Positions 1 to 13,043 of a DNA stretch of 46,012 bases are shown one piece after another. Each line of letters starts with the position of its first letter. Within the stretch, counting starts at the first letter, position 1. The translations under genes were made by a program, and so were the position numbers. The notes below the pieces were generated by a model. It was not told the origin of the DNA. It saw only the letters and a program-made list of their open reading frames with translations, and made no database searches. The stretch is taken from positions 1-46,012 of the forward strand of contig JAOZRT010000006.1 in the NCBI GenBank assembly GCA_029940035.1, read 5' to 3'. The stretch is from Desulfobacterales bacterium. Its GTDB lineage: Bacteria; Desulfobacterota; Desulfobacteria; Desulfobacterales; B30-G6.

Positions 1-2655
1 ACCGTCATATTCCAGGGCGAACACCTGCCAGTAGTAGGTGGTGCCGTCAGCCAGGCCAGTGGGCATGTAGGTGTTGTTGTAGGTGAGAGCAGTGATAACC
101 GGTATGCTCATATCGGCATTGACCGACACCTGCACCAGGTAGCCGGCAGTGTCATGCTGACGTTGCCATTCAAGGGTATCCTGGCCGTTGGCGATTATGG
201 CGCCGTCGGCCGGAGCTGTGAGCATTGGCATGCCCGCCGGGACGGTGATGGTGGTGTAGAAGTTATAGGAAACCTCATCGATAACGCCATCGTTGTTCAG
301 GTCCCTGGCAGTGGAGGTCCGGTAGCCGTTGGCATCGTAGGTGTAGGTGTAAACTTCATCGACAGTGCCGTCACCATCGCTGTCTAAGCTGCTGGAGGTA
401 AGGTAACCGTTTTCATCATATGTCCAGGTTTGGATCTGATCCCAGCTGCCGTCGCCGTCACTGTCGTAGCTGTAGGAGGTTTGATAATTGTTGGTATCGT
501 AGGTCCAGGTGCTGATCCAATCCCAGCTCCCGTCGCCATCGCCGTCATAGGATTGTTGGGTGCGGTTGCCGTTGGTATCGTAGGTGTTGCTCTCCCGGGT
601 GTAATCGGCAGTGCCGTTCATGTCCGTGTCCACCGTGATGGTCAACACCTGGTTGTTCAGGTTGTAAGTGTAGGTATGCATTTCATCCGGTACGGTATCA
701 CCGTCATTGTCATAGGCGATGGTGGTAATATTCCAGTTTTCGTCATATGTTTCCGTTCTGATGGTGTCGAAGGTGCCGTCATCGTCCGTATCCCTGGAAA
801 CAATGTAGGTCGATTGGGCGCCACTGGCATAGTAGGTGTAGCCGTAAGCGTCATCGATGTTGCCGTTGCCGTCCCAGTCATAGGTTTCTGCGATCCTGCG
901 GCCGTTGGCGTCGTAGGTTGCGGTGTAGACATAGTCCGCACTGCCGTCGCCGTCGTAATCATAGGACGCGAATGTCTGCCGGCCGTCGGCATCGTAGGTC
1001 CAGACGTTGATCTCATTTGGGGTGCCGTCACCGTCCCAGTCATATTCCGCGCGGGTGCGATAGCCGTTGGCGTCGTAGGTGTTGCTCTGTTCGGTATAAT
1101 CGACACTACCGTCGTTGTCCGTGTCCACTTCGATGGTCAACAGGTGCCCCTGGTCATCATACGTCCAGGTATACACTTTGTCCATCGTGCCGTCGCCATC
1201 GTCGTCATGGCTCCGGGAGGTGATCCAGCCGTTTTCATCATAAACACTGGTTTGGGTACTTTCATAGACGCCGTCATCTCCGGAGTCGTAGCCGTAGAAG
1301 ATTTGCCTACCGTTTTCATCGTATTGATAATAATAGGCATACTCGACAACACCGTCACCGTCATTGTCACGGGCATAGCGGATTTGATTACCATTGGCGT
1401 CGTACTCATAATACCGGGCCCAGTCAGGGGAGCCATCGCCGTCGCCGTCATAGCCGTAGAAAATTTGGCGGCCGTTTGCGTCGTATTCGTAGTAATAGGC
1501 CCATTCGGGCGTGCCATCGGCATTAGAATCGTTGATCTCGGCGGTTCTCCGGCCATCGTCATTGAAAAGGATGGTGGTGATAGAATTTAAATCGCCGTCC
1601 CCGTCGCTGTCAATTCCGTAGGCTACCTGCACGGTGATGTCGCGCACGGAGAACCCGATCAAAGCCGATCCGCTGCCGTTGTTGCCGCTGGCATCGCGGG
1701 CATACACTTTCCAGTAGTAATCAGTAGCCAAAGACAGGTCGGAAGAGGAATAGTATGTATCACCGGTAGTGGTGTCCACCACCGGGCTGCTGAGGTCTTG
1801 GTTTACGGACACCACGATGCGGTAGTCCGTGGCCTGGTCCACCGTAGACCAGTTAAAATTAAAGCCTTTGGATACGGAATATCCTTCATCCGGGTAGGAG
1901 GGGCTGGGGGCTGCAATGGTGGTGAATTCTCGGATGGATGATTCAGCCAGGACTTCGCCGTCCGAGTTCAGGGCACTTATCTGCCAGTAGTAGGTGGTGC
2001 CGTCGATCAGCCCGCTGGGCTGATTCGTCAGATCCGTGATGATAGTATCAATAGTCGGCGAGCTGAGGTCGCTGTTTTCGGAGATCACGATACGATAACT
2101 GGTTGCCATGCTGAACGCGTTCCAGGCAGTACTGAAGTCCCGGGTATCCGGTGTAATGCCGTCGGCCGGGGCGGTTACCCAGGGGTCGGCCTCAACCGCG
2201 ACGGAAGAGTTAGCACCCTTCACAACATTGATGCTGCGTGATCCGGCATAAATTACACCTTCAGTACTGTCGTGGCCGGTGATCAGCAGGGTGTAGCCGG
2301 AGCCCACCCGGATATTGGCGATTTCGCCTTGTCTGGCAGTGCAATCCCAGGGTCCGCCGGTTTTGAGTTGGGCACCTTGTGAGTTGAATACAATGGCTTG
2401 GACGGTCGAGATCTGGCCGTCTCCTTCCCCGCAGATGTCGCCGATCACTGCTCGGGAGCCGTCATTAATCTGCTGACCGTCGGCACCGTTCCAGACCACG
2501 CTGAAGGGCACCGAACCGGTATCACTGGATATGGCAGATGTATTATTTGCAGTATCCGTATTGCTGTTGCAGCCCGTCAGGAAGACAAGCAGCAGAAACA
2601 TCAGAAAAATAAATCTACTTTTCAGGGGAATGTCTTTGAATATTGACAGTGCCAT
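1..2655 (-). CDS. Giant repeat lipoprotein; the 5' end is complete and the 3' end runs off the window (885 codons visible). It has a lipobox signal peptide, FN3-like 'TTYYW' modules and about 17 tandem DxDGDG + YxYDxNG repeats.
   Basis: Not in the supplied ORF track because there is no stop in the window. I read every plus-strand triplet from position 1 to 2700 and found no tta/cta/tca (minus-strand stops) until tca at 2701-2703. The first in-frame ATG is at 2655, preceded by GAAGGA. The N-terminus is MALSIFKDIPLKSRFIFLMFLLLVFLTGCNSN (lipobox LTGC). Modules end in DGTTYYWQISALNSDGE, ATDYYWKVYARDASGN and DGTTYYWQVFALEYDG. Repeats include DGDGDGSPDWARYYEYDANGNQ, DNDGDGVVEYAYYYQYDENGRQ and DSDGDGSWDQIQTWTYDENGY. 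Confidence 0.85.
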   Translation of the reverse strand, partial: MALSIFKDIPLKSRFIFLMFLLLVFLTGCNSNTDTANNTSAISSDTGSVPFSVVWNGADGQQINDGSRAVIGDICGEGDGQISTVQAIVFNSQGAQLKTGGPWDCTARQGEIANIRVGSGYTLLITGHDSTEGVIYAGSRSINVVKGANSSVAVEADPWVTAPADGITPDTRDFSTAWNAFSMATSYRIVISENSDLSSPTIDTIITDLTNQPSGLIDGTTYYWQISALNSDGEVLAESSIREFTTIAAPSPSYPDEGYSVSKGFNFNWSTVDQATDYRIVVSVNQDLSSPVVDTTTGDTYYSSSDLSLATDYYWKVYARDASGNNGSGSALIGFSVRDITVQVAYGIDSDGDGDLNSITTILFNDDGRRTAEINDSNADGTPEWAYYYEYDANGRQIFYGYDGDGDGSPDWARYYEYDANGNQIRYARDNDGDGVVEYAYYYQYDENGRQIFYGYDSGDDGVYESTQTSVYDENGWITSRSHDDDGDGTMDKVYTWTYDDQGHLLTIEVDTDNDGSVDYTEQSNTYDANGYRTRAEYDWDGDGTPNEINVWTYDADGRQTFASYDYDGDGSADYVYTATYDANGRRIAETYDWDGNGNIDDAYGYTYYASGAQSTYIVSRDTDDDGTFDTIRTETYDENWNITTIAYDNDGDTVPDEMHTYTYNLNNQVLTITVDTDMNGTADYTRESNTYDTNGNRTQQSYDGDGDGSWDWISTWTYDTNNYQTSYSYDSDGDGSWDQIQTWTYDENGYLTSSSLDSDGDGTVDEVYTYTYDANGYRTSTARDLNNDGVIDEVSYNFYTTITVPAGMPMLTAPADGAIIANGQDTLEWQRQHDTAGYLVQVSVNADMSIPVITALTYNNTYMPTGLADGTTYYWQVFALEYDG

Positions 2656-2741
2656 GGTTTTGTCCTTCAATATCTTTATGCTGTCGTTGTTATGAAATAC
2701 TCACTGAGAATAAACATTGCCATTGGCAAGTGGCTAACCGG

Positions 2742-3132: not shown

Positions 3133-4050
3133 CTATCCAGCTCCTCCGGCAGCAGCCTTGGAAATCTGGTATTGAATCAAATGCTCGGCACGATCCTCCA
3201 GGGGGATGCCCACGATCTGGCGGATCAGAGCTTCTATAAATGCGGTTTGGCCATTGTAAATACCGAACACGCCCTCCTGGATGTCAGCATTCTCGAAGTC
3301 AAAGGGCTGCTGGAGGGCCAGCACGTAAACAGCCTCCTTGGCAATGGTTTTGTCCGGCGGAGTGTAGACCTTGAGGACAATGCCTTTTTGACGATCTCCG
3401 GCATCAGGTATGGTGTAAGCTTTATTGGATTCCAGGAAGTTGTTGGTTCGGTACTGGTTGGGGATCAGTTTGAGGACCTTCTGGTCTTCAAGCAGAATGA
3501 AAATGCAGTAAAAGCAATCCTTAGTAGTCTTTAGGCTGATCTCCATCTCCTGGCCATTGTTGAAATTCGTCCTGTTCAAGGCGGCTTCAATTTGAAAGGA
3601 GGGGTCGTGACTCTCAAACTTTTCCACCACCCCCACTTTCATTTTGATTCTGTACATGGGTGATGAATCGTTTTGCCCCCCGGACTGGCCACCATCGTTT
3701 TCCTCGATGATTTCGCTTTCAACAATTTTTGCGTAGGGGATGGCCCCGATCATGGACCCCGACAATTTAAGGTTGACCAGCAAAGTTTCCATGGAGATAT
3801 TCACCACCACAGCTTCTTCAATGGCTTTCCACTCGGCAATTTCGATGGCCGCTTCCCTGGCTTGCTCCACATTGTCATCAACAATGGGCGCTGCAGCCTC
3901 CACCGTGACCCAGGTGATGTCCTGTGTGGCGGCTGTATGGCCCGGCAGCATGAGGAAAACGATCATTACCGCCAGAAAATGTGGCATGCATGCATGGCGT
4001 ACGATCAACAACCGGTTCGCTGTCAGGTTTGTGTGTCTGAAATCAGGCAT
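3133..4050 (-). CDS. Exported protein with an LPP20/FlgT_N-like N-terminal domain and a C-terminal DUF4384-like domain
   Basis: 305-aa ORF, 20 nt downstream of the caspase gene. The signal-like segment is FLAVMIVFLMLPGHTAA (an alternative ATG is at 3987). The C-terminal stretch GQEMEISLKTTKDCFYCIFILLEDQKVLKLIPNQ...AYTIPD...EAVYVLALQQP fits the DUF4384 pattern as I remember it; that domain is often associated with caspase-domain proteins. Confidence 0.8.
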   Translation of the reverse strand: MPDFRHTNLTANRLLIVRHACMPHFLAVMIVFLMLPGHTAATQDITWVTVEAAAPIVDDNVEQAREAAIEIAEWKAIEEAVVVNISMETLLVNLKLSGSMIGAIPYAKIVESEIIEENDGGQSGGQNDSSPMYRIKMKVGVVEKFESHDPSFQIEAALNRTNFNNGQEMEISLKTTKDCFYCIFILLEDQKVLKLIPNQYRTNNFLESNKAYTIPDAGDRQKGIVLKVYTPPDKTIAKEAVYVLALQQPFDFENADIQEGVFGIYNGQTAFIEALIRQIVGIPLEDRAEHLIQYQISKAAAGGAG

Positions 4051-4070
4051 CGCTTCAATTTCCGGATAGC

Positions 4071-5342
4071 CTATTGGCTGATAACACGGCCGATAGCCAT
4101 GTCCCGCAAATTATCTATCGGCGGGTTGATGCTTGGCACCTGTTCGGCTCCCATCCGGCGCGCCACCCTGGGAACATGCATGGCGATATAGTCAAACATC
4201 TCCTTGACACTGACCCATTGATCTTCGTCCTTGTCCGCCTCCCCTTTGAGTCCCTTGAGCATATAATAGGTGAACAAGCCGTGTTCGGCATCGGGGTAGG
4301 CATTGCTCGTTTGCCCCTGGGAGGCAGCACTGAAGGCGATGACATTGTCGTTCTTGAGTTTTATGTCCTGCACATGCATCAAAGCGGGTCGTATTCCCTC
4401 AGCTAACATATCTGCTGCACGGGATGCCACCCCGCTGAAACACGAATCCAGGAAGACATAGGTCTGCCGCAGGTTCATCTTTTCGAGATCCTGGTATAGT
4501 TTTTGGAGCTTGTAGCCGGTCTGCTCGATAAAGCGAATATCGCCGTCATAGGGAACCAGGTAGGGGTCGCCCTTTTTCATACCCGGCGCACCATGGCCGG
4601 CGAAGTACACATACAGAGTCGTTCCTTTGCTGGTGTTGGCTGGGATATAACTTTCGAGATAACCCTCGATTTGGCCTTTGGTGGCCTCGCTATCGATGAG
4701 GGTAACAACATTCTCTTCTGGCACGCCCAGCACCTTGATGAAGTATTCCCGGATGATCAGGGCGTCCTTCCGGGCATAATCGACACTCGGCAGGTGTGCA
4801 TAATCTTGTACGCCGATCACCAGCCCCCAGTCCTGGAGGAGCGGTTTGGTGGCAATTTCAGGGCCTAACTCCAGGGTGTCGGTGAGGGAGGCCAGCATAA
4901 AGGTTTCAGAGTCCGCCATCTCGTCGTTGACAAAGACCTTGACGCTCCATTGGCCAGGCATATTGGCGGCATTGTCCCCTTTGACCATGATGCTGTGCCA
5001 TGCGGTGGCCTTCTTCATGTATTTGCCCTTAGAGATTTTCAAAGGGAATTCATCGGTGGTATGATAGAGATTTCCCTGGGGGTCATACCACTCCCACCTG
5101 AGATTGTGAACGCCGGATAGATTTTCAAATTTCAGATGGGCCACGATCTCTTCATCCGTGGTGGAGAATTCATTGGTGGGTTGCCTGGGTATGGCCTCAT
5201 TTGCCTGCCGCTCGACGCTTTTAGCCATGGTCAAGCCATGGTACTTCAAGGGCGGCTTTTTTTGTACTTGTTTTGATGAACTGCATGAAAAAATGAATAG
5301 AACGACTAAAACAAAGACTAATGCTTTTGGGGAAAAATTCAT
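4071..5342 (-). CDS. Exported peptidase C14 (caspase/orthocaspase-like) protein with an N-terminal beta-rich domain
   Basis: The catalytic dyad motifs are intact: YVYFAGHG (His) and VFLDSCFSG (Cys). The ORF track starts it at 5405, but the ATG at 5342 is preceded by GAGGTG (6 nt spacer) and gives a signal peptide, MNFSPKALVFVLVVLFIFSCSSSK (possible lipoprotein Cys). Confidence 0.9.
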   Translation of the reverse strand: MNFSPKALVFVLVVLFIFSCSSSKQVQKKPPLKYHGLTMAKSVERQANEAIPRQPTNEFSTTDEEIVAHLKFENLSGVHNLRWEWYDPQGNLYHTTDEFPLKISKGKYMKKATAWHSIMVKGDNAANMPGQWSVKVFVNDEMADSETFMLASLTDTLELGPEIATKPLLQDWGLVIGVQDYAHLPSVDYARKDALIIREYFIKVLGVPEENVVTLIDSEATKGQIEGYLESYIPANTSKGTTLYVYFAGHGAPGMKKGDPYLVPYDGDIRFIEQTGYKLQKLYQDLEKMNLRQTYVFLDSCFSGVASRAADMLAEGIRPALMHVQDIKLKNDNVIAFSAASQGQTSNAYPDAEHGLFTYYMLKGLKGEADKDEDQWVSVKEMFDYIAMHVPRVARRMGAEQVPSINPPIDNLRDMAIGRVISQ

Positions 5343-6224
5343 GATACACCTCGCAAGGATTGAGGATAGAGAACATTTTTGAAGTGGTTTAAAATTCCGG
5401 TTCACCCCCCGATCACGGTGCTACGGGTTCTAAAAAATACTCACATGCACTGTTGCATCCTTTCCTTTTTATTGGTGTACACCCAATACTTGGGTGTGAC
5501 CTGAAGTTTTAATCTGCTTCTTGTGATGGTACTGTATATGTATGAATAAAGTTGTATTTAGGATCAACGTTTTCGGCTGTTGGCTGATACAAACAGGATA
5601 TTCGCCTGGATGCTGATGATATTGCTTCGCCAAATCCTTAATATTTATCCATATTAAATCACAGGAGCAGTCGGGAGTCAAGTAAAAACCCAATCGGCAA
5701 ACCCATGACCTGATGCCGGATGCCCTATTTGGCCTAAGACAGGGCAAATTATCATCTAATCTCCTAAAATCGCTCAATTTTAATAGTGTTTGAGGCAAAA
5801 TGTCTTTACAGTGATCAATCTTAAAAGATAGCGCACGGCAAATCATGTTTCGGAACGTGATTTTGCCAAACGCTATAAGCTGAACACCGTAGGCTGAGTC
5901 AGGGTATTGAAATCCTGGGAGGTCAGGGCTTAAAAGAGAGAAAAGAGATATAGTTGGAGAGAAATGTCATTCAACCCAGGTTTAAGGTTGACCCAAAAAA
6001 TTCAGCGCGTTATATGAAATGAATCCACCTACAGAATGAATCTATAAAGCAAAAAATGAATTTTAATCATCGATCGAATTAGATAATCCATAGCTGCCTT
6101 TTGGGGTTTGCATTTTCAGGGTTTCAAGATGAAAGAACATCTTTCTTTACTTCCCTTCTATACAGACTGTCGATTGTTCAGCTACATTTTAACATTTTGA
6201 TTAGTATATGAAAAGGAATAGGAA

Positions 6225-7010
6225 ATGAAAAAAATATGGATAACCTCGATGGACTCTGCAAAGGACAAGATTTCCCAGTTAGCTGCTGTTGTGCAAAAAT
6301 TCGGGCTGGCCATGGAAGGGCATATCTGGGAGGATGACAACAAAAAGATGCCTTGGATTCAGGTTAGGGATGCGGTTACGCATTCCGACATCGGTCTCTG
6401 GGCAATTGTTGCTTCAGGTGAAGATCTGGCCAGTGCATCCATCACCTATGGCTTGTCCATGCTGGCTGTGATTGTGCAGGCGGAACGGGGAAAGGGTTTA
6501 CCCATAGTCATCCTCCAGGCCGGGGGGGAGCCAATTACCCCTGCGGCGCTGCCAACGCCCTTCCAAGATGTAGATTTGTTTTCCCTGGAAGATTCAGGTC
6601 TGGGGGCAAAGTTGGTGGCCAGAATGCATGGCACCCATAAGGCCATGGTTTCGGAATATCTTCTGAACATTCACGGCAATGACCAGGTGGGGCAATGGTT
6701 CGAGCTGAGACCACAGCATAAATCCTGGTCAGGGGTAATTTTTGGTGTTACAGGGGCTGAAATAGCCTTTCAGGCGGTGGGCCCCCAGGGAAAGCTGCCG
6801 GAAAAATCAACTTTAGAATACCCTGTCCAGGGCATTCAACTCGGCCTGGGGGGGAAAGAGGTGGTGGCGTGGTCTGTGCGGAATGTTCTTGATGCACAAA
6901 CCTCATACTATGTGAAAGTTGAGGGAAGCCCGGATACCATTATATTCGGCCCTTATGCCGAAGGGCAGGAGACGGATCTCTTTGTAGTCAAATTATTGGC
7001 GACAGCATAG
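6225..7010 (+). CDS. Hypothetical protein (261 aa): an alpha/beta N-terminal half followed by a beta-rich C-terminal half
   Basis: Clean ORF with GGAATAGGAA upstream of the ATG. The N-terminus KIWITSMDSAKDKISQLAAVVQKFGLAMEGHIWEDD...DIGLWAIVAS has the strand-helix-strand spacing seen in TIR-like/flavodoxin-like folds, but I see no catalytic Glu. This is a pattern-level impression only. Confidence 0.7.
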   Translation: MKKIWITSMDSAKDKISQLAAVVQKFGLAMEGHIWEDDNKKMPWIQVRDAVTHSDIGLWAIVASGEDLASASITYGLSMLAVIVQAERGKGLPIVILQAGGEPITPAALPTPFQDVDLFSLEDSGLGAKLVARMHGTHKAMVSEYLLNIHGNDQVGQWFELRPQHKSWSGVIFGVTGAEIAFQAVGPQGKLPEKSTLEYPVQGIQLGLGGKEVVAWSVRNVLDAQTSYYVKVEGSPDTIIFGPYAEGQETDLFVVKLLATA

Positions 7011-7216: not shown

Positions 7217-7987
7217 ATGGCAGACCTAGAAATCGCTCGCAAGGATTTGGATAACCAACAGTTCATGAATTTGAGGCAGAGCACGGAAAAAATCGTAAGT
7301 ATCCTGGGTAAACGCCTCAAATCGCACCTGGATGTGTTAAAGCCGATCTTCATGCCCCGCAAACTTCTGGGGACCTTTGTCAAAAGTGCGCTGAAGGATG
7401 AAATAATCGGTTCGAACAAGGCCTTTGCGGAACTGCAGAAATGCTATGCCGCGGTATGCGAAAAGCCTTTTGGCTTGCCCAAAAAGCTGCAGGCGCCCCT
7501 GGCACCCATATCCGGCCAGCTGGATGCAGTGCCGTTCAAATATTCAATTTTACTGGGAGAATCCAAAGACAAGCCCATCACTGTTACGGCAGCATCGCGA
7601 TGGATCGTGTCCTACCGTAGCGAATGCCCCTTCAGCCGTTTAAAAGCCATGATCGCTGGAGATGAAACCCGTCAGACAGAGGATATGAAACAGTCGCTCA
7701 TCGATCACCTGGCCCTGGTGGTATTCCTGAAAAAGTTTCCGGCCCTGGGGCAGCTGTTGAATGACCTGAGGTATGATGTGGAGGTCGTTAAATTGGATGA
7801 TCTTGGTGGGTTGCCAGTAGTGACCCTGAAGGCATCCATCAGCACCTTTTTACCACCCAACGACTTTATCCTACAGGTTACTCAGCTTTCCGGCATTCCC
7901 GCTTTTCAGGAGATCATCGACATGGAAGCGCTGGAAATTATTCCCGACCCCCTCAAAAACGAATTGCTGGTGGCAATAGAGAAATAG
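7217..7987 (+). CDS. Hypothetical protein (256 aa); no recognisable family
   Basis: Clean ORF 206 nt downstream of the previous gene and convergent with the sheath-like gene. No signal peptide or TM segment is evident. Confidence 0.7.
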   Translation: MADLEIARKDLDNQQFMNLRQSTEKIVSILGKRLKSHLDVLKPIFMPRKLLGTFVKSALKDEIIGSNKAFAELQKCYAAVCEKPFGLPKKLQAPLAPISGQLDAVPFKYSILLGESKDKPITVTAASRWIVSYRSECPFSRLKAMIAGDETRQTEDMKQSLIDHLALVVFLKKFPALGQLLNDLRYDVEVVKLDDLGGLPVVTLKASISTFLPPNDFILQVTQLSGIPAFQEIIDMEALEIIPDPLKNELLVAIEK

Positions 7988-8115: not shown

Positions 8116-9693
8116 CTAGATAACGAGGTCCCAGGCAAGGGTAAGTTCCATTGCCTTACTGGTGGTCAGAACGGCCTGGGAGGGATTGATTTTCAATGTT
8201 ATTGGTACGCGGTGGTTTGCATCGAGCCGGCCCAGGGAAATACTCACCGCATCAGCAACTGGTTCGAGGCTGTTTCCTAAAAAGCGGGTTAGGGCATCCT
8301 GGATCCAGGCTTCCGGCTGCCGGACCTTAAGATCGATTCCCCTTTTTTCCTGCAAATACAGCAAAAACCGGATGACTCCCGACAGGTATAGCTGGTGGCC
8401 AAGGGATATGCCCCCGAGGGTGGTTTCACCGGAAGCAAAGGCAAAATCCTTGCCCTTCATTCCCATCAGCGGGGTGATTCCCGACCTAAAAAGCTGATCG
8501 GCCCGGTCCCTGCTGAAAACCGTTTCCGTGGCGCATTGCCCGTGGGCATCCGCATGCAAGGCCAGGTCTTCTACCTGGAATCGATCTTTATGGGTAAAGC
8601 GGGTGGGCCAGCCATTTTTTAGAAGCCCCTGCACGATCAAATCGGCCAGCCCCCACACAGGGGCCGCCCAAGGAAGGCGACCCTCTTCATAGGAAAAGAC
8701 ACGCGGCGTGTTCTGGGGGCCATAGGGATAACGCAGAAGAAAACGATTGCAGGTGACAGCCAGCCAATCGGAATTGCCGTTCTGTTTCAGTGATTGCCAT
8801 TTTGCATAAGGTGCTTCTTTAAGAAAGTGAGGCAGGAATGGGCGCTTGGACATTTCTTCCCAGGTGTCGAGATTGAAAAAGGCCGGTGACAACCACACCA
8901 GGGCTGGCGTCATGAGGGTTGCCGCAAATTCGGCAATGGCTTTCAGCAAGATTTGACTTCGGGTTGTGTTGTCCAGGGGCAGGTCCACCAGGATAAGTGC
9001 GGGCAGGTCCGTTGCCATATCCGGCAGGAGGTCTTGCAGGGTCTGCTGTAAAGTTTCGTGGGACACATGCGCAATGTTCACTCGTATCTTTGAGTCACTG
9101 CGCACGGATTTCAGCAGTCGATGCAATCCGCGCCAGGACGCTTCCGAAGTTGTAAAGGGTTGGTGGTGGAAAATGGCATCCAGTGTTTTCTGGAGGATGC
9201 CCTCTATCAGATCTTTGCCGCGAATTTCCTGGATTGAAGAGTCTGCAGGCCCGTCTGGAAGAGCTACCATGTCCAGTATGTTTTCTATTTTCCTCGATAT
9301 ACGAAAAGGCCTTTTGGGGCCCTGGTCCACCGCTATCTGCGGCAGGTCGGGCCATTGGTCCAGACCCTTGCGGATTTCAGCCGCTGATATTCCGGATGAC
9401 TGGGATTGATCCAGATACCTTTTAGCTTCCAAGAGATGCTTAAGAAAGGGCAGGTTCTTGACCATTGCGTCCGGGTGAAAGTCTTTGATCCTGGAGCAAG
9501 AAACATTCATTCCTCCCTGGGGGCAGAGCTCTTGGGGCAGGGGCACGTAGGTGTTTAGACCGAAGGCAGCCATTACCTGGTTCAGTTCTGCCGGATCCAC
9601 ATGAACCGGCATTGCGCCGGGAAAGGATTTGTCGGAAAAACCAAAGGGCGCCAGGGCTAGTATTTTATACAATAGTGAACCTTTGGGTATCAT
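8116..9693 (-). CDS. Fused TssB-TssC (VipA-VipB-like) contractile-sheath family protein in one 525-aa polypeptide
   Basis: Residues ~8-93 are TssB-like: YKILALAPFG, VHVDPAELNQVMAAF, SRIKDFHPDAMVKNLPFLKHLLEAKRYL. Residues ~165-525 are TssC-like: IFHHQPFTTSEASWRGL, PALILVDLPL...AATLMTPAL, NRFLLRYPYG, FSYEEG, FSRDRADQLFRSGITPL, LSGVIRFLLYLQ. The comparisons are to VipA/VipB motifs recalled from memory. The start ATG overlaps the stop of the upstream FHA gene (ATGA at 9690-9693). Confidence 0.85.
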   Translation of the reverse strand: MIPKGSLLYKILALAPFGFSDKSFPGAMPVHVDPAELNQVMAAFGLNTYVPLPQELCPQGGMNVSCSRIKDFHPDAMVKNLPFLKHLLEAKRYLDQSQSSGISAAEIRKGLDQWPDLPQIAVDQGPKRPFRISRKIENILDMVALPDGPADSSIQEIRGKDLIEGILQKTLDAIFHHQPFTTSEASWRGLHRLLKSVRSDSKIRVNIAHVSHETLQQTLQDLLPDMATDLPALILVDLPLDNTTRSQILLKAIAEFAATLMTPALVWLSPAFFNLDTWEEMSKRPFLPHFLKEAPYAKWQSLKQNGNSDWLAVTCNRFLLRYPYGPQNTPRVFSYEEGRLPWAAPVWGLADLIVQGLLKNGWPTRFTHKDRFQVEDLALHADAHGQCATETVFSRDRADQLFRSGITPLMGMKGKDFAFASGETTLGGISLGHQLYLSGVIRFLLYLQEKRGIDLKVRQPEAWIQDALTRFLGNSLEPVADAVSISLGRLDANHRVPITLKINPSQAVLTTSKAMELTLAWDLVI

Positions 9694-10619
9694 TTTGAAA
9701 AGAACTTACTGAACATGGAACCGGATTTTTTTTCTTTTTTCCTGTCGGTTTCCCGGGAGGTTGTATTTTTTTCCTGCATGGCGTCGATTTCTGCCGCAGG
9801 TACAGTACTGGGTTGCTCGATTTCGGCCAGGCGACCCCCGCCGAGAAAGCGAAAAGCAGGGCCATTGTTTCCCAGTGCCAGAACATCTTCTGGTCTCAGG
9901 ACCGCCTCGGTATTGATGGGCGCACCGTGAATCGATATGGACTGTCTGCCGGTCAGGTCCTTTATACAGTATTGATCGTTGTCAAAATAGATTTGCGCGT
10001 GCTTGGTTGCAACCGAAGCGTGGTTGAGCACGAAATCACAGTCAGCGTCCGTGCCGATAACGATGGGCAGTGTATTGAATGACTGTAGGGTTGGCCCGTA
10101 CTGGATCACCAATGGCACCTTGACTTTTTGCGGTGTGGGGCCACTGCCGGGCGGTTGTAGACCGCCTGTCCGAGGGATGGGCTTTACACCTGAAGATGGC
10201 GGTTGCTGCGATGCGCGCGGCTCCGGAGACAAGGGCTTTGGGGAGGGCGGTGGCGGTGGTGATGACGCCATAACCGGCGGTGAAGCAGCTATATTGTCAT
10301 CCACCCGCGTGAGAAAGCTTACCTTGGGACCACCTTCGGCAAACATGATCACGTCACCGTCCTTTAGGTAGGCTTCGCCGATGCTTTTTCCGTTCAGGAA
10401 AGTTCCATTGGCACTTTTATCCTCCACCCGGAAACGGTTTCCCTCTCGAATGATGGTGGCATGTTGGCGGGAAATGATGGTCAGGTCTTCAGGGAATCGA
10501 ACCTGGCAGGTGGAAAGCCTACCCACTGCGATTTCAGGTTCGGTGAATTCCTGGATGTCACCCTTGAGCGGACCGGCAATATGTACCAGTTGGACAATAA
10601 TGGTAGGTAGGGACGGCAT
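9690..10619 (-). CDS. Double FHA-domain protein with a Pro-rich linker and a basic C-terminal tail
   Basis: FHA 1: IAVGRLSTCQVRFPEDLTIISRQHATIIREGNRFRVEDKSANGTFLNG. Linker: SPPPPPSPKPLSPEP. FHA 2: IVIGTDADCDFVLNHASVATKHAQIYFDNDQYCIKDLTGRQSISIHG. Translationally coupled to the sheath-like gene. Confidence 0.9.
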   Translation of the reverse strand: MPSLPTIIVQLVHIAGPLKGDIQEFTEPEIAVGRLSTCQVRFPEDLTIISRQHATIIREGNRFRVEDKSANGTFLNGKSIGEAYLKDGDVIMFAEGGPKVSFLTRVDDNIAASPPVMASSPPPPPSPKPLSPEPRASQQPPSSGVKPIPRTGGLQPPGSGPTPQKVKVPLVIQYGPTLQSFNTLPIVIGTDADCDFVLNHASVATKHAQIYFDNDQYCIKDLTGRQSISIHGAPINTEAVLRPEDVLALGNNGPAFRFLGGGRLAEIEQPSTVPAAEIDAMQEKNTTSRETDRKKEKKSGSMFSKFFSK

Positions 10620-10743: not shown

Positions 10744-10772
10744 TTGACAACAGACTGGTATCATAATAAATT
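10744..10772 (+). promoter_or_regulatory. Candidate sigma70-type promoter for the PP2C-kinase operon
   Basis: TTGACA at 10744-10749, a 17-nt spacer, then TAAATT at 10767-10772, about 60 nt upstream of the ATG at 10834. It lies in the 214-bp divergent intergenic region. Motif match only. Confidence 0.3.
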
Positions 10773-10833: not shown

Positions 10834-11565
10834 ATGAACATGATACATTATTATGGGAAGACAGATGTTGGTCTGGTGCGTCAAAACAATGAAGATACCT
10901 ATGCCCTAGATTCGGCGCGCGGCTTTTGTCTGGTGGCTGACGGCATGGGGGGTATGGCTGGAGGTGAGTTGGCCAGCCAAATGTTTGCAGAGGCTGCCAA
11001 GGGTATCTTTGCTTCCGGCAGTCTGGCTACGGAGAAAGACCGGATAGAGACGGTGCAGCAGATATTTTGGTATGCCAATAACAGCATTCTGAAGCATGTG
11101 GAGAACAATTCCCATCTCAAGGGAATGGGGTGTACCGCGGAACTGATCGTGTTCAGCGAGAATAGGTTCGTCATCGGGCATATGGGTGACAGCCGCACCT
11201 ATCAGTTGAGAAATGGTCAACTCAAGCAGCTCACCAAGGATCATTCCTTGGTCCAAGAACAACTTGACCAGGGACTCATCTCCGATCCCCAGGCTGTTGT
11301 GCATTCCATGCGCAATGTTATCTTGCGGGCGGTGGGGGTGGAAGAGGACCTGCAGCTAGATATTATCAGAGGGAATATTCAAGCTGGAGATCACTACCTG
11401 CTCTGTTCGGACGGTTTGACTGATATGGTTCAGAATGGTGAAATCGAAAACATTTTATCATCAGGCATGAGCCTTGCCGAGAAAGTGGATCAGCTAATTG
11501 CCGAGGCCCTCTCCGCCGGCGGGAAAGACAATGTAACCGTTGTTGCTGTGATGGTGGATTCATGA
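10834..11565 (+). CDS. PP2C-family Ser/Thr protein phosphatase
   Basis: MNMIHYYGKTDVGLVRQNNEDTYAL..., VADGMGG, MGCTA, GDSRTY, LLCSDGL, GGKDNVTVV. The ORF-track start at 10381 overlaps the FHA gene on the opposite strand, so I use the internal ATG at 10834. The stop overlaps the kinase start (ATGA). Confidence 0.9.
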   Translation: MNMIHYYGKTDVGLVRQNNEDTYALDSARGFCLVADGMGGMAGGELASQMFAEAAKGIFASGSLATEKDRIETVQQIFWYANNSILKHVENNSHLKGMGCTAELIVFSENRFVIGHMGDSRTYQLRNGQLKQLTKDHSLVQEQLDQGLISDPQAVVHSMRNVILRAVGVEEDLQLDIIRGNIQAGDHYLLCSDGLTDMVQNGEIENILSSGMSLAEKVDQLIAEALSAGGKDNVTVVAVMVDS

Positions 11566-13043
11566 TGCAGTATGGAAGATACCGAATAGAAAAAGAGCTG
11601 GGTAAGGGGAACATGGGGGTAGTCTATCAGGCCGTTGATCCCCAGATAGAGAGATTGGTAGCCTTGAAGGTCCTGCGTGAGGACCGGATGGTCAGTGAAG
11701 ACTTTGTCATGCGCTTCGTAAAGGAGGCCAAGGCCATAGGACGGCTCTCTCATCCCAACATTGTGACAGTGTATGATGTCGGTCAGGACAACGACACCAT
11801 CTATATTGCCATGGAATATCTGGAAGGGCGGCCCTTTGACGAAGTGATCCGCGGCAGCAGGCTGGAGCTCGAAAAGATTTTGGATATCGGTATACAGGTA
11901 GCAGAAACCCTGGATTATGCGCATAAAAAGAAAATTGTTCATCGGGATATCAAACCCTCCAACATGATCCTGAGCGAAGAGGGCCGGGTCAAACTGACCG
12001 ATTTCGGCATTGCTCGTATCGAAGATCCCTTGGTCATGCAACAGACGCAGGCCGGTGAAATACTGGGTACGCCCGTTTATATGCCGCCGGAACAGGCTAT
12101 GGGTACACCCATCGACGGTAGAGCTGACCTCTACTCGCTGGGCGTTATTCTATATGAACTGATCGTCGGCAGGCGCCCTTTTGATGGCAGTAACATCACA
12201 GCCATATTAAGATCCATCATTCAGGACACCCCCGAATCGCCTTCCCAGGTTGATCCGTTTATCCCCCAGGGCATTTCAGATTTGATCATGAAGTGTCTTT
12301 CCAGGAATCCGGAAGATCGGTTCCAGACAGGTGCTGAGCTGGCCACGGCGCTCAAGAATGCGACCAGGAAGGAACAGCAGGAGGCCATCGTCCCGGAAAA
12401 TAAGCCGGGCATATCGACCAAATTTCTGGGTGTCTGGCTGGCCCTGGGCATCATTGCACTGGTAGGCACAGGAGTTGGATGGTATCTTCTCAAGGGCGGA
12501 GCGGAGTCTCCGGTCAGTGGTGTGGTCAAGGATGTCAAAACCTTGGATGAGGCGCACACATCCAAGACACCATCTGCTATACCGTCGACAGCGAAGGAAG
12601 ATCCGTCCGGGATCATTGATCAAGGGCCAGTGACGGATCTTGAGACGGCCACAGGGGCGGAGGGGACAACAGTCCTGGAGCAACCTAATGCTGAATCTCC
12701 GATTGCAATTGGGGAGGAAGCCACCGGTGCTGAAGCGGGAGCGTCAGGAGAGGAACAAATTGTTAGTGAAACAACGGATACGCGCGACCAGACAGCCGAT
12801 AAATCAGCCCAGCCTGACATGTCTGCGTTAAGCACGAGCCTGATAATTGAGAGCAAGCCGGCCGGCGCCCAGGTATTTATTGAAAATAGCATGAAAGGGC
12901 TGACGCCCTTGAATCTGGAGCTGCCCTTTGGCGATTACAATATACGCTTGAGTCTGGCGGATCACTACGAGTGGAAGGCGGACCTGGAGTTGAGTGAAGA
13001 AGGTGAGATCCCCCTGTTTGTCCAAATGGTACCCAGCAATTAG
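11562..13043 (+). CDS. Hanks-type Ser/Thr protein kinase with one TM helix and a C-terminal extracytoplasmic PEGA-like domain
   Basis: GKGNMGVVY, ALKVL, HRDIKPSNMIL, DFGIAR and GTPVYMPPEQ. TM helix FLGVWLALGIIALVGTGVGWYLL. C-terminus SLIIESKPAGAQVFIENSMKGLTPLNLELPFGDYNIRL (PEGA-like). Confidence 0.92.
   Translation: MMQYGRYRIEKELGKGNMGVVYQAVDPQIERLVALKVLREDRMVSEDFVMRFVKEAKAIGRLSHPNIVTVYDVGQDNDTIYIAMEYLEGRPFDEVIRGSRLELEKILDIGIQVAETLDYAHKKKIVHRDIKPSNMILSEEGRVKLTDFGIARIEDPLVMQQTQAGEILGTPVYMPPEQAMGTPIDGRADLYSLGVILYELIVGRRPFDGSNITAILRSIIQDTPESPSQVDPFIPQGISDLIMKCLSRNPEDRFQTGAELATALKNATRKEQQEAIVPENKPGISTKFLGVWLALGIIALVGTGVGWYLLKGGAESPVSGVVKDVKTLDEAHTSKTPSAIPSTAKEDPSGIIDQGPVTDLETATGAEGTTVLEQPNAESPIAIGEEATGAEAGASGEEQIVSETTDTRDQTADKSAQPDMSALSTSLIIESKPAGAQVFIENSMKGLTPLNLELPFGDYNIRLSLADHYEWKADLELSEEGEIPLFVQMVPSN

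What the first reader, a model, noticed from the sequence alone, without database searches (positions are those of the whole stretch)
8116..9693. Single-polypeptide TssB-TssC (VipA-VipB-like) sheath fusion standing alone
One uninterrupted 525-aa ORF carries, in order, the hallmark motifs of both subunits of the type VI contractile sheath.

Small-subunit (TssB-like) motifs, residues ~8-93:
- YKILALAPFG, compare LKLLVMGDFTG
- VHVDPAELNQVMAAF, compare ISVDKLNFDEVLAK
- SRIKDFHPDAMVKNLPFLKHLLEAKRYL, compare SLKDFEPEAVAQQVPELNKLLELRTAL

Large-subunit (TssC-like) motifs, residues ~165-525:
- IFHHQPFTTSEASWRGL, compare ILHHPxFQxLEAxWRGL
- NRFLLRYPYG, compare PRFLxRLPYG
- FSRDRADQLFRSGITPL, compare SDRREAELAxxGFxPL
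- LSGVIRFLLYLQ, compare CRFAHYLK

The comparison strings are V. cholerae VipA/VipB motifs as I remember them.

Canonical systems encode the two subunits separately (about 170 + 490 aa). Here the TssB C-terminal half and roughly the first 70-100 residues of TssC (the region that carries the ClpV-recognition helix in canonical sheaths) appear to be replaced by a ~70-aa linker. No Hcp, VgrG, TssE/F/G/K, TssJ/L/M, TssA or ClpV is recognisable anywhere in the 46 kb. A compact, fused, orphan sheath protein could be a minimal contractile or cytoskeletal polymer rather than part of a secretion machine.
Basis: partly seen in the sequence, partly recalled or inferred. Interest (0 to 1): 0.85.

Follow-up and report, generated by a model that had tools for sequence, protein, structure and literature searches.

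The report
Fused sheath protein tied to T6SS
One gene really does fuse the two sheath proteins of the bacterial type VI secretion "spring". Relatives show it is an extra, stripped-down copy kept beside the system's phosphorylation switch and often beside complete secretion gene clusters, not a free-standing new machine.

Summary
Window 8116..9693 (minus strand) is one intact 525-aa ORF. It passes Pfam thresholds for both T6SS_VipA and VipB. Its predicted fold superposes on solved TssC and TssB chains. More than 260 same-length homologues exist, and dN/dS against the closest is 0.30, so it is neither an artefact nor a pseudogene.

The "standing alone" reading holds only locally. The 46 kb window has no other T6SS structural gene. 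Family-wide, though, the gene sits in a conserved module: a double-FHA protein (4-nt overlap with the fusion's start), PP2C, a transmembrane Ser/Thr kinase with a PEGA domain, and two unknown proteins (u261, u256).

In many Desulfobacterota this module flanks clpV-vgrG-DUF2169-DUF3540-PAAR-like genes. In at least four genomes it lies on the same contig as a canonical tssC; in one, a complete cluster with separate tssB, tssC and hcp was annotated. Other genomes keep the whole module without the fusion.

The fusion lacks the TssB N-terminal inter-subunit arm and has a shrunken domain 3.

Best reading: an accessory, Fha-coupled sheath paralogue in phosphorylation-controlled T6SS assembly. The mechanism is inferred. 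I found no literature on natural fusions. It is a new variant of a known kind, of moderate-to-high interest.

The parts
8116..9693 (-). Fused TssB-TssC sheath paralogue ('BC'), 525 aa plus stop codon
   Evidence: ORF. Pfam VipA and VipB above threshold. AF2 model and Foldseek hits to TssC/TssB chains. 268 homologues.
9361..9693 (-). TssB-like part, residues 1-111. It corresponds to TssB residues ~24-135. The first ~23 TssB residues (the N-terminal donor arm) are missing.
   Evidence: Profile vs PDB: residues 5-94 match TssB 28-124. hhalign: residue 1 aligns to TssB 24. All family N-termini start at the same point.
9220..9360 (-). Condensed domain-3 remnant or linker, residues 112-158. Predicted disordered, yet it carries the conserved motifs WPDLPxIxI and DxILxMVALP.
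   Evidence: pLDDT below 50 for residues 125-157. Motif conservation across 32 sequences. Low-confidence collinear alignment to the TssC N-terminus. dN/dS 0.64 here against 0.22-0.29 in the flanks.
8119..9219 (-). TssC-like part, residues 159-525, including the C-terminal domain and the last beta-strand
   Evidence: Pfam VipB on residues 163-423. Foldseek alignments cover 408-433 columns of TssC chains. hhalign reaches TssC residue 489.
9690..10619 (-). Double-FHA protein: FHA, Pro/Ser-rich disordered region, FHA, basic amphipathic C-terminal tail. Its stop codon overlaps the BC start (ATGA).
   Evidence: Pfam FHA x2. Weak match to TagH TIGR03354, 72.5 bits against a cut-off of 120. An FHA-FHA gene clusters upstream of BC on the same strand in 38 loci. 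Tail motif like SLFKKFF is conserved. ATGA junction.
10837..11565 (+). PP2C phosphatase. The mechanical ORF starts at 10381; the true start is inferred at 10837 from homologue lengths.
   Evidence: Pfam PP2C_2/PP2C. Homologues are 242-245 aa. Sequence MNMIHYYGKTD. Promoter-like site at 10744-10772.
11562..13043 (+). Ser/Thr protein kinase with one transmembrane segment and a C-terminal PEGA domain (PpkA-like receptor kinase)
   Evidence: Pfam Pkinase and PEGA. Hydrophobic stretch FLGVWLALGIIALVGTGVGWYLL. Conserved next to PP2C in relatives.
7217..7987 (+). u256: highly conserved protein of unknown fold, convergent with BC. In relatives it is the last gene of the T6SS spike operon.
   Evidence: No Pfam, NCBIfam or PDB hit. 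60-68% identity across the family. AF2 pLDDT 81 with no fold match in PDB or BFVD. Context.
6225..7010 (+). u261: conserved protein of unknown function upstream of u256. In relatives it follows the PAAR-like or FHA-SLT genes of T6SS clusters.
   Evidence: No family hits. 172 homologues, all 'hypothetical'. Context.
3133..5405 (-). Caspase-like peptidase C14 (4071-5405) and DUF4384 protein (3133-4050). A recurrent but optional neighbour pair of the module.
   Evidence: Pfam. PADLOC/NCBIfam caspase hits. The caspase recurs in 7 other BC loci; the DUF4384 partner was matched in 2 of them (L002, L027).

Best explanation
The gene encodes an accessory, single-chain paralogue of the T6SS sheath. It belongs to the threonine-phosphorylation (Fha / PpkA-like kinase / PppA-like phosphatase) control module of a Desulfobacterota T6SS lineage.

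**Shown.**
- It keeps the TssB-TssC core fold.
- It is co-transcribed with, and probably translationally coupled to, a double-FHA scaffold protein.
- It is under purifying selection.
- In relatives it sits at the end of clpV-vgrG-DUF2169-DUF3540-PAAR-like-u261-u256 operons. It shares a contig with a canonical tssC in at least four genomes, and with a fully annotated cluster (separate tssB, tssC, hcp) in one.

**Inferred mechanism.**
- The receptor kinase senses an envelope signal and creates phospho-threonine sites.
- The FHA-FHA protein is tethered to the membrane by its amphipathic tail. It binds those sites and carries the fused protomer with it.
- The fused protomer retains the C-terminal donor strand, and probably the acceptor sheet (inferred from the retained fold, not examined directly). 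It has lost the TssB N-terminal donor arm and most of domain 3, including a helical ClpV-recognition site.
- It can therefore dock on canonical TssBC or on the TssE baseplate but cannot propagate a normal interlaced, recyclable sheath.
- It would thus act as a one-sided primer, cap or anchor that couples Fha activation to sheath assembly. Whether it activates or inhibits is unknown.

In this window the module lies away from any T6SS cluster, which may be elsewhere in the genome.
For: **Identity and fold:**

**A conserved family, not an artefact:**

**Coupling to FHA-FHA:** an FHA-FHA gene clusters with BC in 38 loci, nearly always directly upstream on the same strand. Gaps run from -4 to a few tens of nt in most loci (up to 466), and the window has an ATGA overlap.

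**PP2C and the TM-PEGA kinase** are conserved alongside.

**T6SS linkage.**
- VgrG, ClpV (TIGR03345, 1193 bits against a cut-off of 885), DUF2169, DUF3540 or Tox-PAAR-like lie within 10 kb in 16 of 56 BC-anchored loci.
- The same holds for about 15 of 28 BC-containing u256-anchored loci.
- A full canonical cluster, tssM-tagF-tssA-tssB-tssC-hcp-tssE-tssF-tssG-clpV-vgrG, runs into u261-u256 and the fused gene in MAG VK4_bin-1304.
- A canonical TssC and the fusion share a contig in bacterium B35, MFD00709.bin.1.229 and Desulfocapsa GMC10.metabat2.188. They are in the same MAG in BP8.bin43.

**Loss of the N-terminal arm:**. The importance of that arm for inter-subunit connection and contraction comes from PMC5797969.

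**Fha parallels:** the FHA / disordered region / amphipathic helix architecture matches the Acidovorax Fha described in bioRxiv 10.1101/2023.12.21.572528. That preprint also reports that baseplate (TssG) foci need TssB.
Against: - No T6SS structural gene lies in the 46 kb window, and I could not search the rest of the source genome.
- Many relatives also show no T6SS gene within 10 kb.
- Desulfopila sp. IMCC35008 and several MAGs keep the entire module without the fusion, so it is dispensable for that T6SS type.
- No interaction, phosphorylation or polymerisation data exist.
- The alignment of the linker motifs to the TssC N-terminus has low posterior confidence.
- The handshake argument rests on alignment to canonical proteins and on one paper, not on a modelled assembly.
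Confidence: 0.55

Rival explanations
1. Autonomous sheath-derived polymer. The fused protein self-assembles into a minimal contractile or cytoskeletal filament, gated by the kinase/phosphatase/FHA module and independent of any T6SS.
For: - The window and many related loci have no T6SS gene nearby.
- The module carries its own regulators.
- The sheath core fold and the C-terminal donor strand are kept.
- Domain 3 and the ClpV site are reduced, as expected for a polymer that is not recycled.
Against: - Recurrent physical linkage to clpV/vgrG and to complete T6SS clusters.
- The flanking u261/u256 genes are T6SS-operon genes even in genomes without the fusion.
- The N-terminal donor arm needed for the interlaced sheath mesh is missing.
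- No tube-like partner was found. u256 has no tube fold.
Confidence: 0.15
2. Negative regulator or decoy. The one-armed protomer poisons or caps growing canonical sheaths, or titrates TssA/ClpV/baseplate sites. It holds the T6SS off until the phosphorylation state changes.
For: - Same context evidence as the best explanation.
- A protomer that can accept but not donate one linker is a classic chain terminator.
- TagF, a known Fha-linked repressor, is in the adjacent canonical cluster.
Against: Nothing distinguishes inhibition from priming with the data at hand. The fusion is optional in otherwise identical clusters, which fits a modulator of either sign.
Confidence: 0.2
3. It is simply the working sheath of a T6SS, replacing separate TssB and TssC.
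For: Both sheath domains are in one protein. It is adjacent to T6SS genes in relatives.
Against: - The one adjacent cluster annotated in full encodes its own full-length TssB (162 aa, 179.9 bits) and TssC (494 aa, 718.6 bits). Further carriers also encode a canonical TssC.
- The fusion scores far below the NCBIfam equivalog cut-offs.
- It is only 20-26% identical to the canonical TssC.
- It lacks the N-terminal arm.
Confidence: 0.04
4. Assembly or frameshift artefact, or a decaying duplicate.
For: A few relatives look truncated: L047 and L052 match only residues ~174-521 and ~205-521.
Against: - 268 homologues of about 520 aa were found; nearly all of the 120 listed carry both domains, and they come from many independent assemblies.
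- 39 invariant columns.
- dN/dS 0.30, with both halves constrained.
- The ORF in the closest independent contig has identical length.
Confidence: 0.01

Closest known systems
Canonical T6SS sheath TssB/TssC (VipA/VipB, HsiB/HsiC, IglA/IglB)
   Same: - Same core fold. Foldseek E down to 7e-19, and target-normalised TM 0.72 to M. xanthus TssC.
- Same hallmark motifs: KDFHPD, EAxWRGL, RFLxRYPYG, PTE.
- C-terminal strand retained.
- Encoded next to T6SS genes in relatives.
   Different: - One polypeptide instead of two.
- Lacks the ~23-residue TssB N-terminal inter-subunit arm.
- Domain 3 is shrunk to a ~45-residue disordered segment. At the position of the ClpV-binding helix the motif contains prolines.
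- Only ~20% identical to canonical TssC, and below the NCBIfam equivalog cut-offs.
- Co-exists with a normal TssB/TssC pair.
T6SS threonine phosphorylation pathway (Fha1/TagH, PpkA/TagE, PppA/TagG, as in P. aeruginosa H1-T6SS and Agrobacterium)
   Same: - FHA scaffold protein with a disordered region and an amphipathic C-terminal tail.
- Transmembrane Hanks-type kinase.
- PP2C phosphatase.
- Adjacent to T6SS clusters, with TagF, in relatives.
   Different: - The FHA protein has two FHA domains and scores below the TagH cut-off.
- The kinase has a PEGA domain, where PpkA has a von Willebrand-type periplasmic domain (the latter from my own knowledge).
- A sheath paralogue sits in the Fha operon, which I have not seen described for any TPP.
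Single-chain sheath proteins of contractile phages, R-type pyocins and eCIS/CIS
   Same: One polypeptide carrying the conserved inner sheath domains. Weak but significant structural matches: Streptomyces CIS, AFP, T4 gp18, PVC (E 1e-7 to 1e-4).
   Different: By sequence the fusion is clearly derived from TssB plus TssC, not from those lineages. Those sheaths keep both N- and C-terminal linker arms (PMC5797969).
Sheath-end and sheath-binding T6SS accessory factors (TssE/gp25 sheath initiator, TssA cap, TagA, TagB, TagJ)
   Same: The proposed role, acting at the ends or on the surface of the sheath polymer to control assembly, is of this kind.
   Different: No sequence or fold relationship was tested or found. 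The fusion is a sheath protomer itself. The role is inferred only.

Membership tests
T6SS contractile sheath (TssB/TssC) | TssB/VipA family domain | tested here: met
   Pfam PF05591: 35.3 bits against a cut-off of 24, residues 29-110. Profile hits to TssB chains. It misses the NCBIfam equivalog cut-off: 31.4 against 97.25.
T6SS contractile sheath (TssB/TssC) | TssC/VipB N-terminal domain | tested here: met
   Pfam PF05943: 123 bits against a cut-off of 27. It misses the TIGR03355 equivalog cut-off: 109.9 against 271.5.
T6SS contractile sheath (TssB/TssC) | TssC C-terminal domain | tested here: met
   Not detected by Pfam. Foldseek alignments span 408-433 columns of 414-473-residue TssC chains, with target-normalised TM 0.64-0.72. 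hhalign reaches TssC residue 489.
T6SS contractile sheath (TssB/TssC) | Two separate subunits forming a heterodimeric protomer | tested here: not met
   Single 525-aa ORF. The same holds across the listed homologues, all about 520 aa.
T6SS contractile sheath (TssB/TssC) | TssB N-terminal linker and donor strand connecting protomers | tested here: not met
   Residue 1 of the fusion aligns to TssB residue ~24-28. No family member has an N-terminal extension. The role of the arm comes from PMC5797969.
T6SS contractile sheath (TssB/TssC) | C-terminal donor strand of TssC | tested here: met
   A terminal beta-strand at residues 515-522 in the model. It aligns to the TssC C-terminus. By alignment only.
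T6SS contractile sheath (TssB/TssC) | Surface domain 3 with a ClpV-recognition helix | tested here: inconclusive
   The region is reduced to a disordered 112-158 segment. The conserved WPDLPxIxI motif aligns at low confidence to the TssC FSLLEEI helix position but contains prolines. ClpV binding is not testable here.
T6SS contractile sheath (TssB/TssC) | Encoded with tube, spike and baseplate genes as the system's sheath | tested here: not met
   None in the window. In relatives it is adjacent to T6SS clusters, and the cluster annotated in full has its own TssB/TssC.
T6SS contractile sheath (TssB/TssC) | Polymerises around Hcp and contracts | not testable with these tools
   Needs expression with EM, or live imaging.
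T6SS threonine phosphorylation pathway (Fha/PpkA/PppA) | FHA scaffold protein of the TagH/Fha1 type | tested here: inconclusive
   Two FHA domains. TIGR03354: 72.5 bits against a cut-off of 120. The disordered region plus amphipathic tail resemble Fha.
T6SS threonine phosphorylation pathway (Fha/PpkA/PppA) | Membrane Hanks-type kinase plus PP2C phosphatase encoded alongside | tested here: met
   Pkinase, a TM segment and PEGA; PP2C. Conserved in relatives.
T6SS threonine phosphorylation pathway (Fha/PpkA/PppA) | Genomic linkage to a T6SS cluster | tested here: inconclusive
   Not met in the window. Met in many relatives. The rest of the source genome could not be searched.
T6SS threonine phosphorylation pathway (Fha/PpkA/PppA) | Phosphorylation-dependent control of T6SS assembly | not testable with these tools
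   Needs genetics or biochemistry.

The most novel reading that the evidence does not exclude
In lineages such as this window's, the module is uncoupled from any T6SS cluster. There the fused, one-armed, ClpV-independent sheath protein may have been exapted as a phosphorylation-gated cytoplasmic polymer or scaffold, that is, a T6SS-derived cytoskeletal element. It would work with the double-FHA protein, u256/u261 and perhaps the caspase/DUF4384 pair, without any tube or baseplate.
Probability: 0.15. Interest if true: 0.85.

Novelty: new variant of a known kind. Interest (0 to 1): 0.6.

Why it matters
T6SS sheaths are described as obligate TssB/TssC heterodimers. In five full-text searches and one 2026 review of T6SS accessory factors I found no report of a natural fusion.

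This family is widespread, conserved and single-chain. It has lost one of the two inter-subunit arms and most of the recycling domain. It is kept in the Fha operon of the phosphorylation switch, alongside a normal sheath.

If it docks on the canonical sheath or baseplate, it would be a new kind of assembly checkpoint component. It would also be a natural experiment on how sheath connectivity controls polymerisation and contraction.

It further flags two highly conserved T6SS-linked proteins with no known family. One of them (u256) has a confident predicted structure that matches no known fold.

One carrier, Thermodesulfobacteriota bacterium B35, is not flagged as a MAG, so it may offer an experimental handle. 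Desulfopila sp. IMCC35008 is a natural fusion-less comparator.

Tried and rejected
- **Anti-phage defence system.** PADLOC gave nothing for the fusion, u261, u256 or the FHA protein.
- **u256 or u261 as hidden tube or baseplate proteins.** No Pfam, NCBIfam or PDB-profile hits. The confident u256 model has no significant fold match in PDB or BFVD.
- **Testing whether fusion-carrying genomes always hold canonical T6SS.** The tool chose N-terminal-specific patterns for TssC and returned only 8 loci. That was enough for five co-occurrence cases but not for a census. No genome scans remain, so complete chromosomes (CP070657.1 and others) and the window's own genome could not be searched.
- **Conserved phospho-threonine site in the linker.** Ser/Thr-rich in most members but not conserved, and the window's copy has no Thr there. 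Dropped.
- **ClpV-helix remnant.** My first guess, DxILxMVALP as the ClpV helix, was replaced after hhalign. That motif aligns to TssC ~44-56, and WPDLP aligns to the helix position. Both alignments are of low confidence.
- **Contaminated alignment.** My first canonical TssB/TssC alignment was contaminated by a second fused family (L060-L062). I repeated it with canonical TssC sequences only.
- **Literature.** Searches for natural TssB-TssC fusions found nothing relevant.
Full report
**Observation.** All quoted motifs are in the translation.
- Pfam gives VipB (E 1.7e-35, 123 bits, residues 163-423) and T6SS_VipA (E 1.2e-8, 35.3 bits, residues 29-110). Both are above their gathering scores.
- NCBIfam finds the TssC and TssB equivalog models, but far below their cut-offs: 109.9 against 271.5, and 31.4 against 97.25. 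It is a divergent relative, not an ordinary sheath gene.
- Sequence and profile searches of the PDB hit TssC and TssB chains of Pseudomonas, Vibrio, Myxococcus, Azotobacter and Francisella.
- An AlphaFold2 model built on 32 homologues is confident (pLDDT 82.7, pTM 0.84). Only residues 1-5 and 125-157 are disordered.
- Foldseek places the model on TssC chains. The best is 5urw_1B: target-normalised TM 0.72, rmsd 3.8 Å over 408 columns. It also matches TssB (5urw_1A, TM 0.52). The TssC C-terminal domain that Pfam missed is therefore present.

**Not an artefact.**
- 268 database proteins match at E ≤ 0.001. Those listed are about 520 aa and nearly all carry both domains.
- 61 loci were recovered from species-representative genomes, almost all Desulfobacterota MAGs.
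- The closest relative (85% identity, independent ENA assembly) has an ORF of identical length and the same neighbours.
- dN/dS between the two is 0.30 overall. It is 0.22 in the TssB-like part, 0.29 in the TssC-like part and 0.64 in the linker.

**Anatomy.** Profile and HH alignments give these correspondences:

| Fusion residues | Canonical counterpart |
|---|---|
| 1-~111 | TssB ~24-135 |
| ~159-521 | TssC ~70-489 |

- The fusion, like every family member, begins right at the KILALAPF strand. It therefore lacks the first ~23 residues of TssB.
- In VipA, that N-terminal segment is the linker and strand that interconnects sheath subunits. Changing its length by two residues abolishes contraction (PMC5797969).
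- The C-terminal strand of TssC is retained.
- The segment 112-158 is predicted disordered but contains nearly invariant motifs, WPDLPxIxI and DxILxMVALP.
- With low posterior confidence, these motifs align collinearly to the TssC N-terminal FSLLEEI (ClpV-binding helix position) and to GVEALLAQLIEPG.
- So the 'linker' is a condensed remnant of domain 3 rather than a neutral spacer. The helix position now carries prolines.

**Window context.** Pfam on all larger ORFs shows the following:
- Upstream on the same strand is a protein with two FHA domains. Its stop overlaps the fusion's start (ATGA).
- Divergently transcribed are a PP2C phosphatase and a Hanks-type kinase with one transmembrane segment and a PEGA domain.
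- Convergent with the fusion are two proteins without any family hit, u256 and u261.
- Further left lie a caspase-like peptidase and a DUF4384 protein.
- The rest of the window is housekeeping: aconitase, mfd, surA-like, mgtE, recO, glyQS, ligA, ftsY, smc.

tblastn with a full set of T6SS proteins found nothing else in the window.

**Family context.** I clustered ORFs from 61 loci.
- An FHA-FHA gene clusters with the fusion in 38 loci, nearly always directly upstream on the same strand.
- PP2C and the kinase are usually adjacent.
- u261 and/or u256 lie convergent downstream in most loci.
- Often added are a trypsin-like protease, CsgG-like lipoproteins and a predicted outer-membrane barrel. 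This set is reminiscent of the envelope sensors feeding PpkA.

Sixteen of 56 loci also contain one or more of the following within 10 kb:
- VgrG (TIGR03361, 481 bits)
- ClpV/TssH (TIGR03345, 1193 bits against a cut-off of 885)
- DUF2169
- DUF3540
- Tox-PAAR-like genes

**A complete T6SS next door.** In MAG VK4_bin-1304 the neighbouring genes are TssG and TssF. Extending the contig gave tssM, tagF, tssA, tssB (162 aa), tssC (494 aa), hcp and tssE. All but TssM and TagF scored above their NCBIfam cut-offs. The order then continues tssF-tssG-clpV-vgrG-HEAT-u261-u256, followed by the convergent fusion, FHA-FHA, PP2C and the kinase. That T6SS has its own normal sheath, and the fusion is an additional paralogue.

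**Second census.** A census anchored on u256 (55 loci) shows a recurring order: clpV-vgrG-DUF2169-DUF3540-PAAR-like-(FHA-SLT)-u261-u256 | fusion, FHA-FHA | PP2C-protease-kinase.
- It adds same-contig co-occurrence of canonical TssC and the fusion in Thermodesulfobacteriota bacterium B35, MFD00709.bin.1.229 and Desulfocapsa GMC10.metabat2.188.
- It adds same-MAG co-occurrence in BP8.bin43.
- About half of the informative u256 loci lack the fusion.
- The isolate Desulfopila sp. IMCC35008 has the entire arrangement, with FHA-FHA directly abutting u256. Several other loci likewise keep FHA-FHA without the fusion.
- Ca. Electrothrix has the spike operon with u261 and u256 but no FHA-FHA or fusion.
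- The fusion is therefore an optional insert in the Fha operon of this T6SS lineage. u261 and u256 are T6SS-operon genes in their own right.

**Interpretation.**
- What is shown: a conserved, selected, single-chain sheath paralogue. It is physically coupled to the Fha/kinase/phosphatase module and recurrently linked to canonical T6SS clusters that keep their own TssB/TssC.
- What is inferred: because it keeps the sheath core and the C-terminal donor strand but has lost the N-terminal arm and the recycling domain, it should be able to dock on canonical sheath or baseplate handshake sites without propagating a normal mesh.
- Further inference: being made together with a membrane-tethered FHA scaffold (FHA, Pro/Ser-rich disordered region, FHA, SLFKKFF-type amphipathic tail), it would link the phosphorylation signal to sheath nucleation, capping or anchoring.
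- The architecture of the FHA protein parallels the Acidovorax Fha. That Fha forms condensates, needs its amphipathic helix, and organises baseplate foci that also require TssB (bioRxiv 10.1101/2023.12.21.572528).
- The sign of the effect (primer or poison) cannot be decided. An autonomous polymer in genomes where the module is uncoupled from T6SS, as possibly here, is not excluded.

**Comparison with the known.**
- The protein fails the membership test for 'the' T6SS sheath on three tested features. It is not two subunits, it has no N-terminal arm, and it is not the sheath of a cluster.
- It clearly descends from that family.
- The flanking genes fit the threonine phosphorylation pathway in composition. 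However, the FHA protein is below the TagH cut-off.
- Five full-text searches and a 2026 review of T6SS accessory factors gave no description of a natural TssB-TssC fusion or of a sheath paralogue in an Fha operon.
- Database annotations are 'ImpC', 'hypothetical protein' or 'contractile sheath domain-containing protein'.

**Verdict.**
The fusion is real and domain 3 is reduced, but the gene is not orphan in the evolutionary sense.
- Novelty: a new variant of a known kind.
- Interest is about 0.6. It is less radical than a free-standing new cytoskeleton, but it is an undescribed, widespread T6SS accessory with a suggestive one-armed architecture, sitting beside two unknown conserved T6SS-linked proteins.

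Noticed in passing
L062:9275-10837 (Alteromonadaceae bacterium BrNp21-10); also L061:173-1729 and L060:6927-8279: A second, unrelated fused VipA+VipB family (~520 aa) in Gammaproteobacteria, only 20-24% identical to the window's protein. In the L062 protein, VipA covers residues 25-124 and VipB 227-510, so the TssC C-terminal domain seems to be missing. Its neighbours in L062 are a TonB receptor, a sulfotransferase-TPR protein, FKBP, an ECF sigma factor and DUF4331, with no T6SS genes within 10 kb. This one looks genuinely orphan.
   Followed up: partly
window 7217-7987 (+): u256 is more conserved than the fusion: 60-68% identity across the family. It has a confident AF2 model (pLDDT 81) with no significant fold match in PDB or BFVD. 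It is the last gene of T6SS spike operons in Desulfobacterota, so it may be a new T6SS accessory fold.
   Followed up: partly
window 6225-7010 (+): u261 is a conserved 258-aa protein with no family. By eye it has a Rossmann/TIR-like alternating N-terminal half and a beta-rich C-terminal half. It precedes u256 in T6SS operons, including those of the isolate Desulfopila sp. IMCC35008 and Ca. Electrothrix.
   Followed up: partly
L043:16153-17622; L067:8508-9977; L068:8478-9974: A protein combining an FHA domain with an SLT lytic transglycosylase sits just upstream of u261 in many of these T6SS clusters. This suggests phospho-threonine-controlled peptidoglycan remodelling during T6SS assembly.
   Followed up: no
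window 3133-5405 (-); also L002, L005, L007, L027, L043, L047: A caspase-like C14 peptidase recurs next to the module in 7 other loci at 26-60% identity. Its DUF4384 partner was matched only in L002 and L027. The meaning is unknown.
   Followed up: no
window 1-2670 (-): An ORF of at least 890 aa runs off the left end of the window. It has a lipoprotein-like N-terminus, repeated fibronectin-type segments and a long array of D-x-D-G-D-G (calcium-binding-like) ~20-residue repeats. It is not listed by the ORF tool because it is cut by the window edge.
   Followed up: no
L016, L025, L026, L037, L049 (left of the kinase); L067:13368-20068: CsgG-like/TPR lipoproteins, a predicted outer-membrane barrel and a trypsin-like protease are conserved next to the PEGA kinase. 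They may be an envelope sensor analogous to TagQRST. They are absent from the window.
   Followed up: no
L047:10001-11047 (CP070652.1); L052:10001-10954: Copies of the fusion that match only the C-terminal ~320-350 residues and lack an upstream FHA gene. They may be truncated or decaying copies.
   Followed up: no
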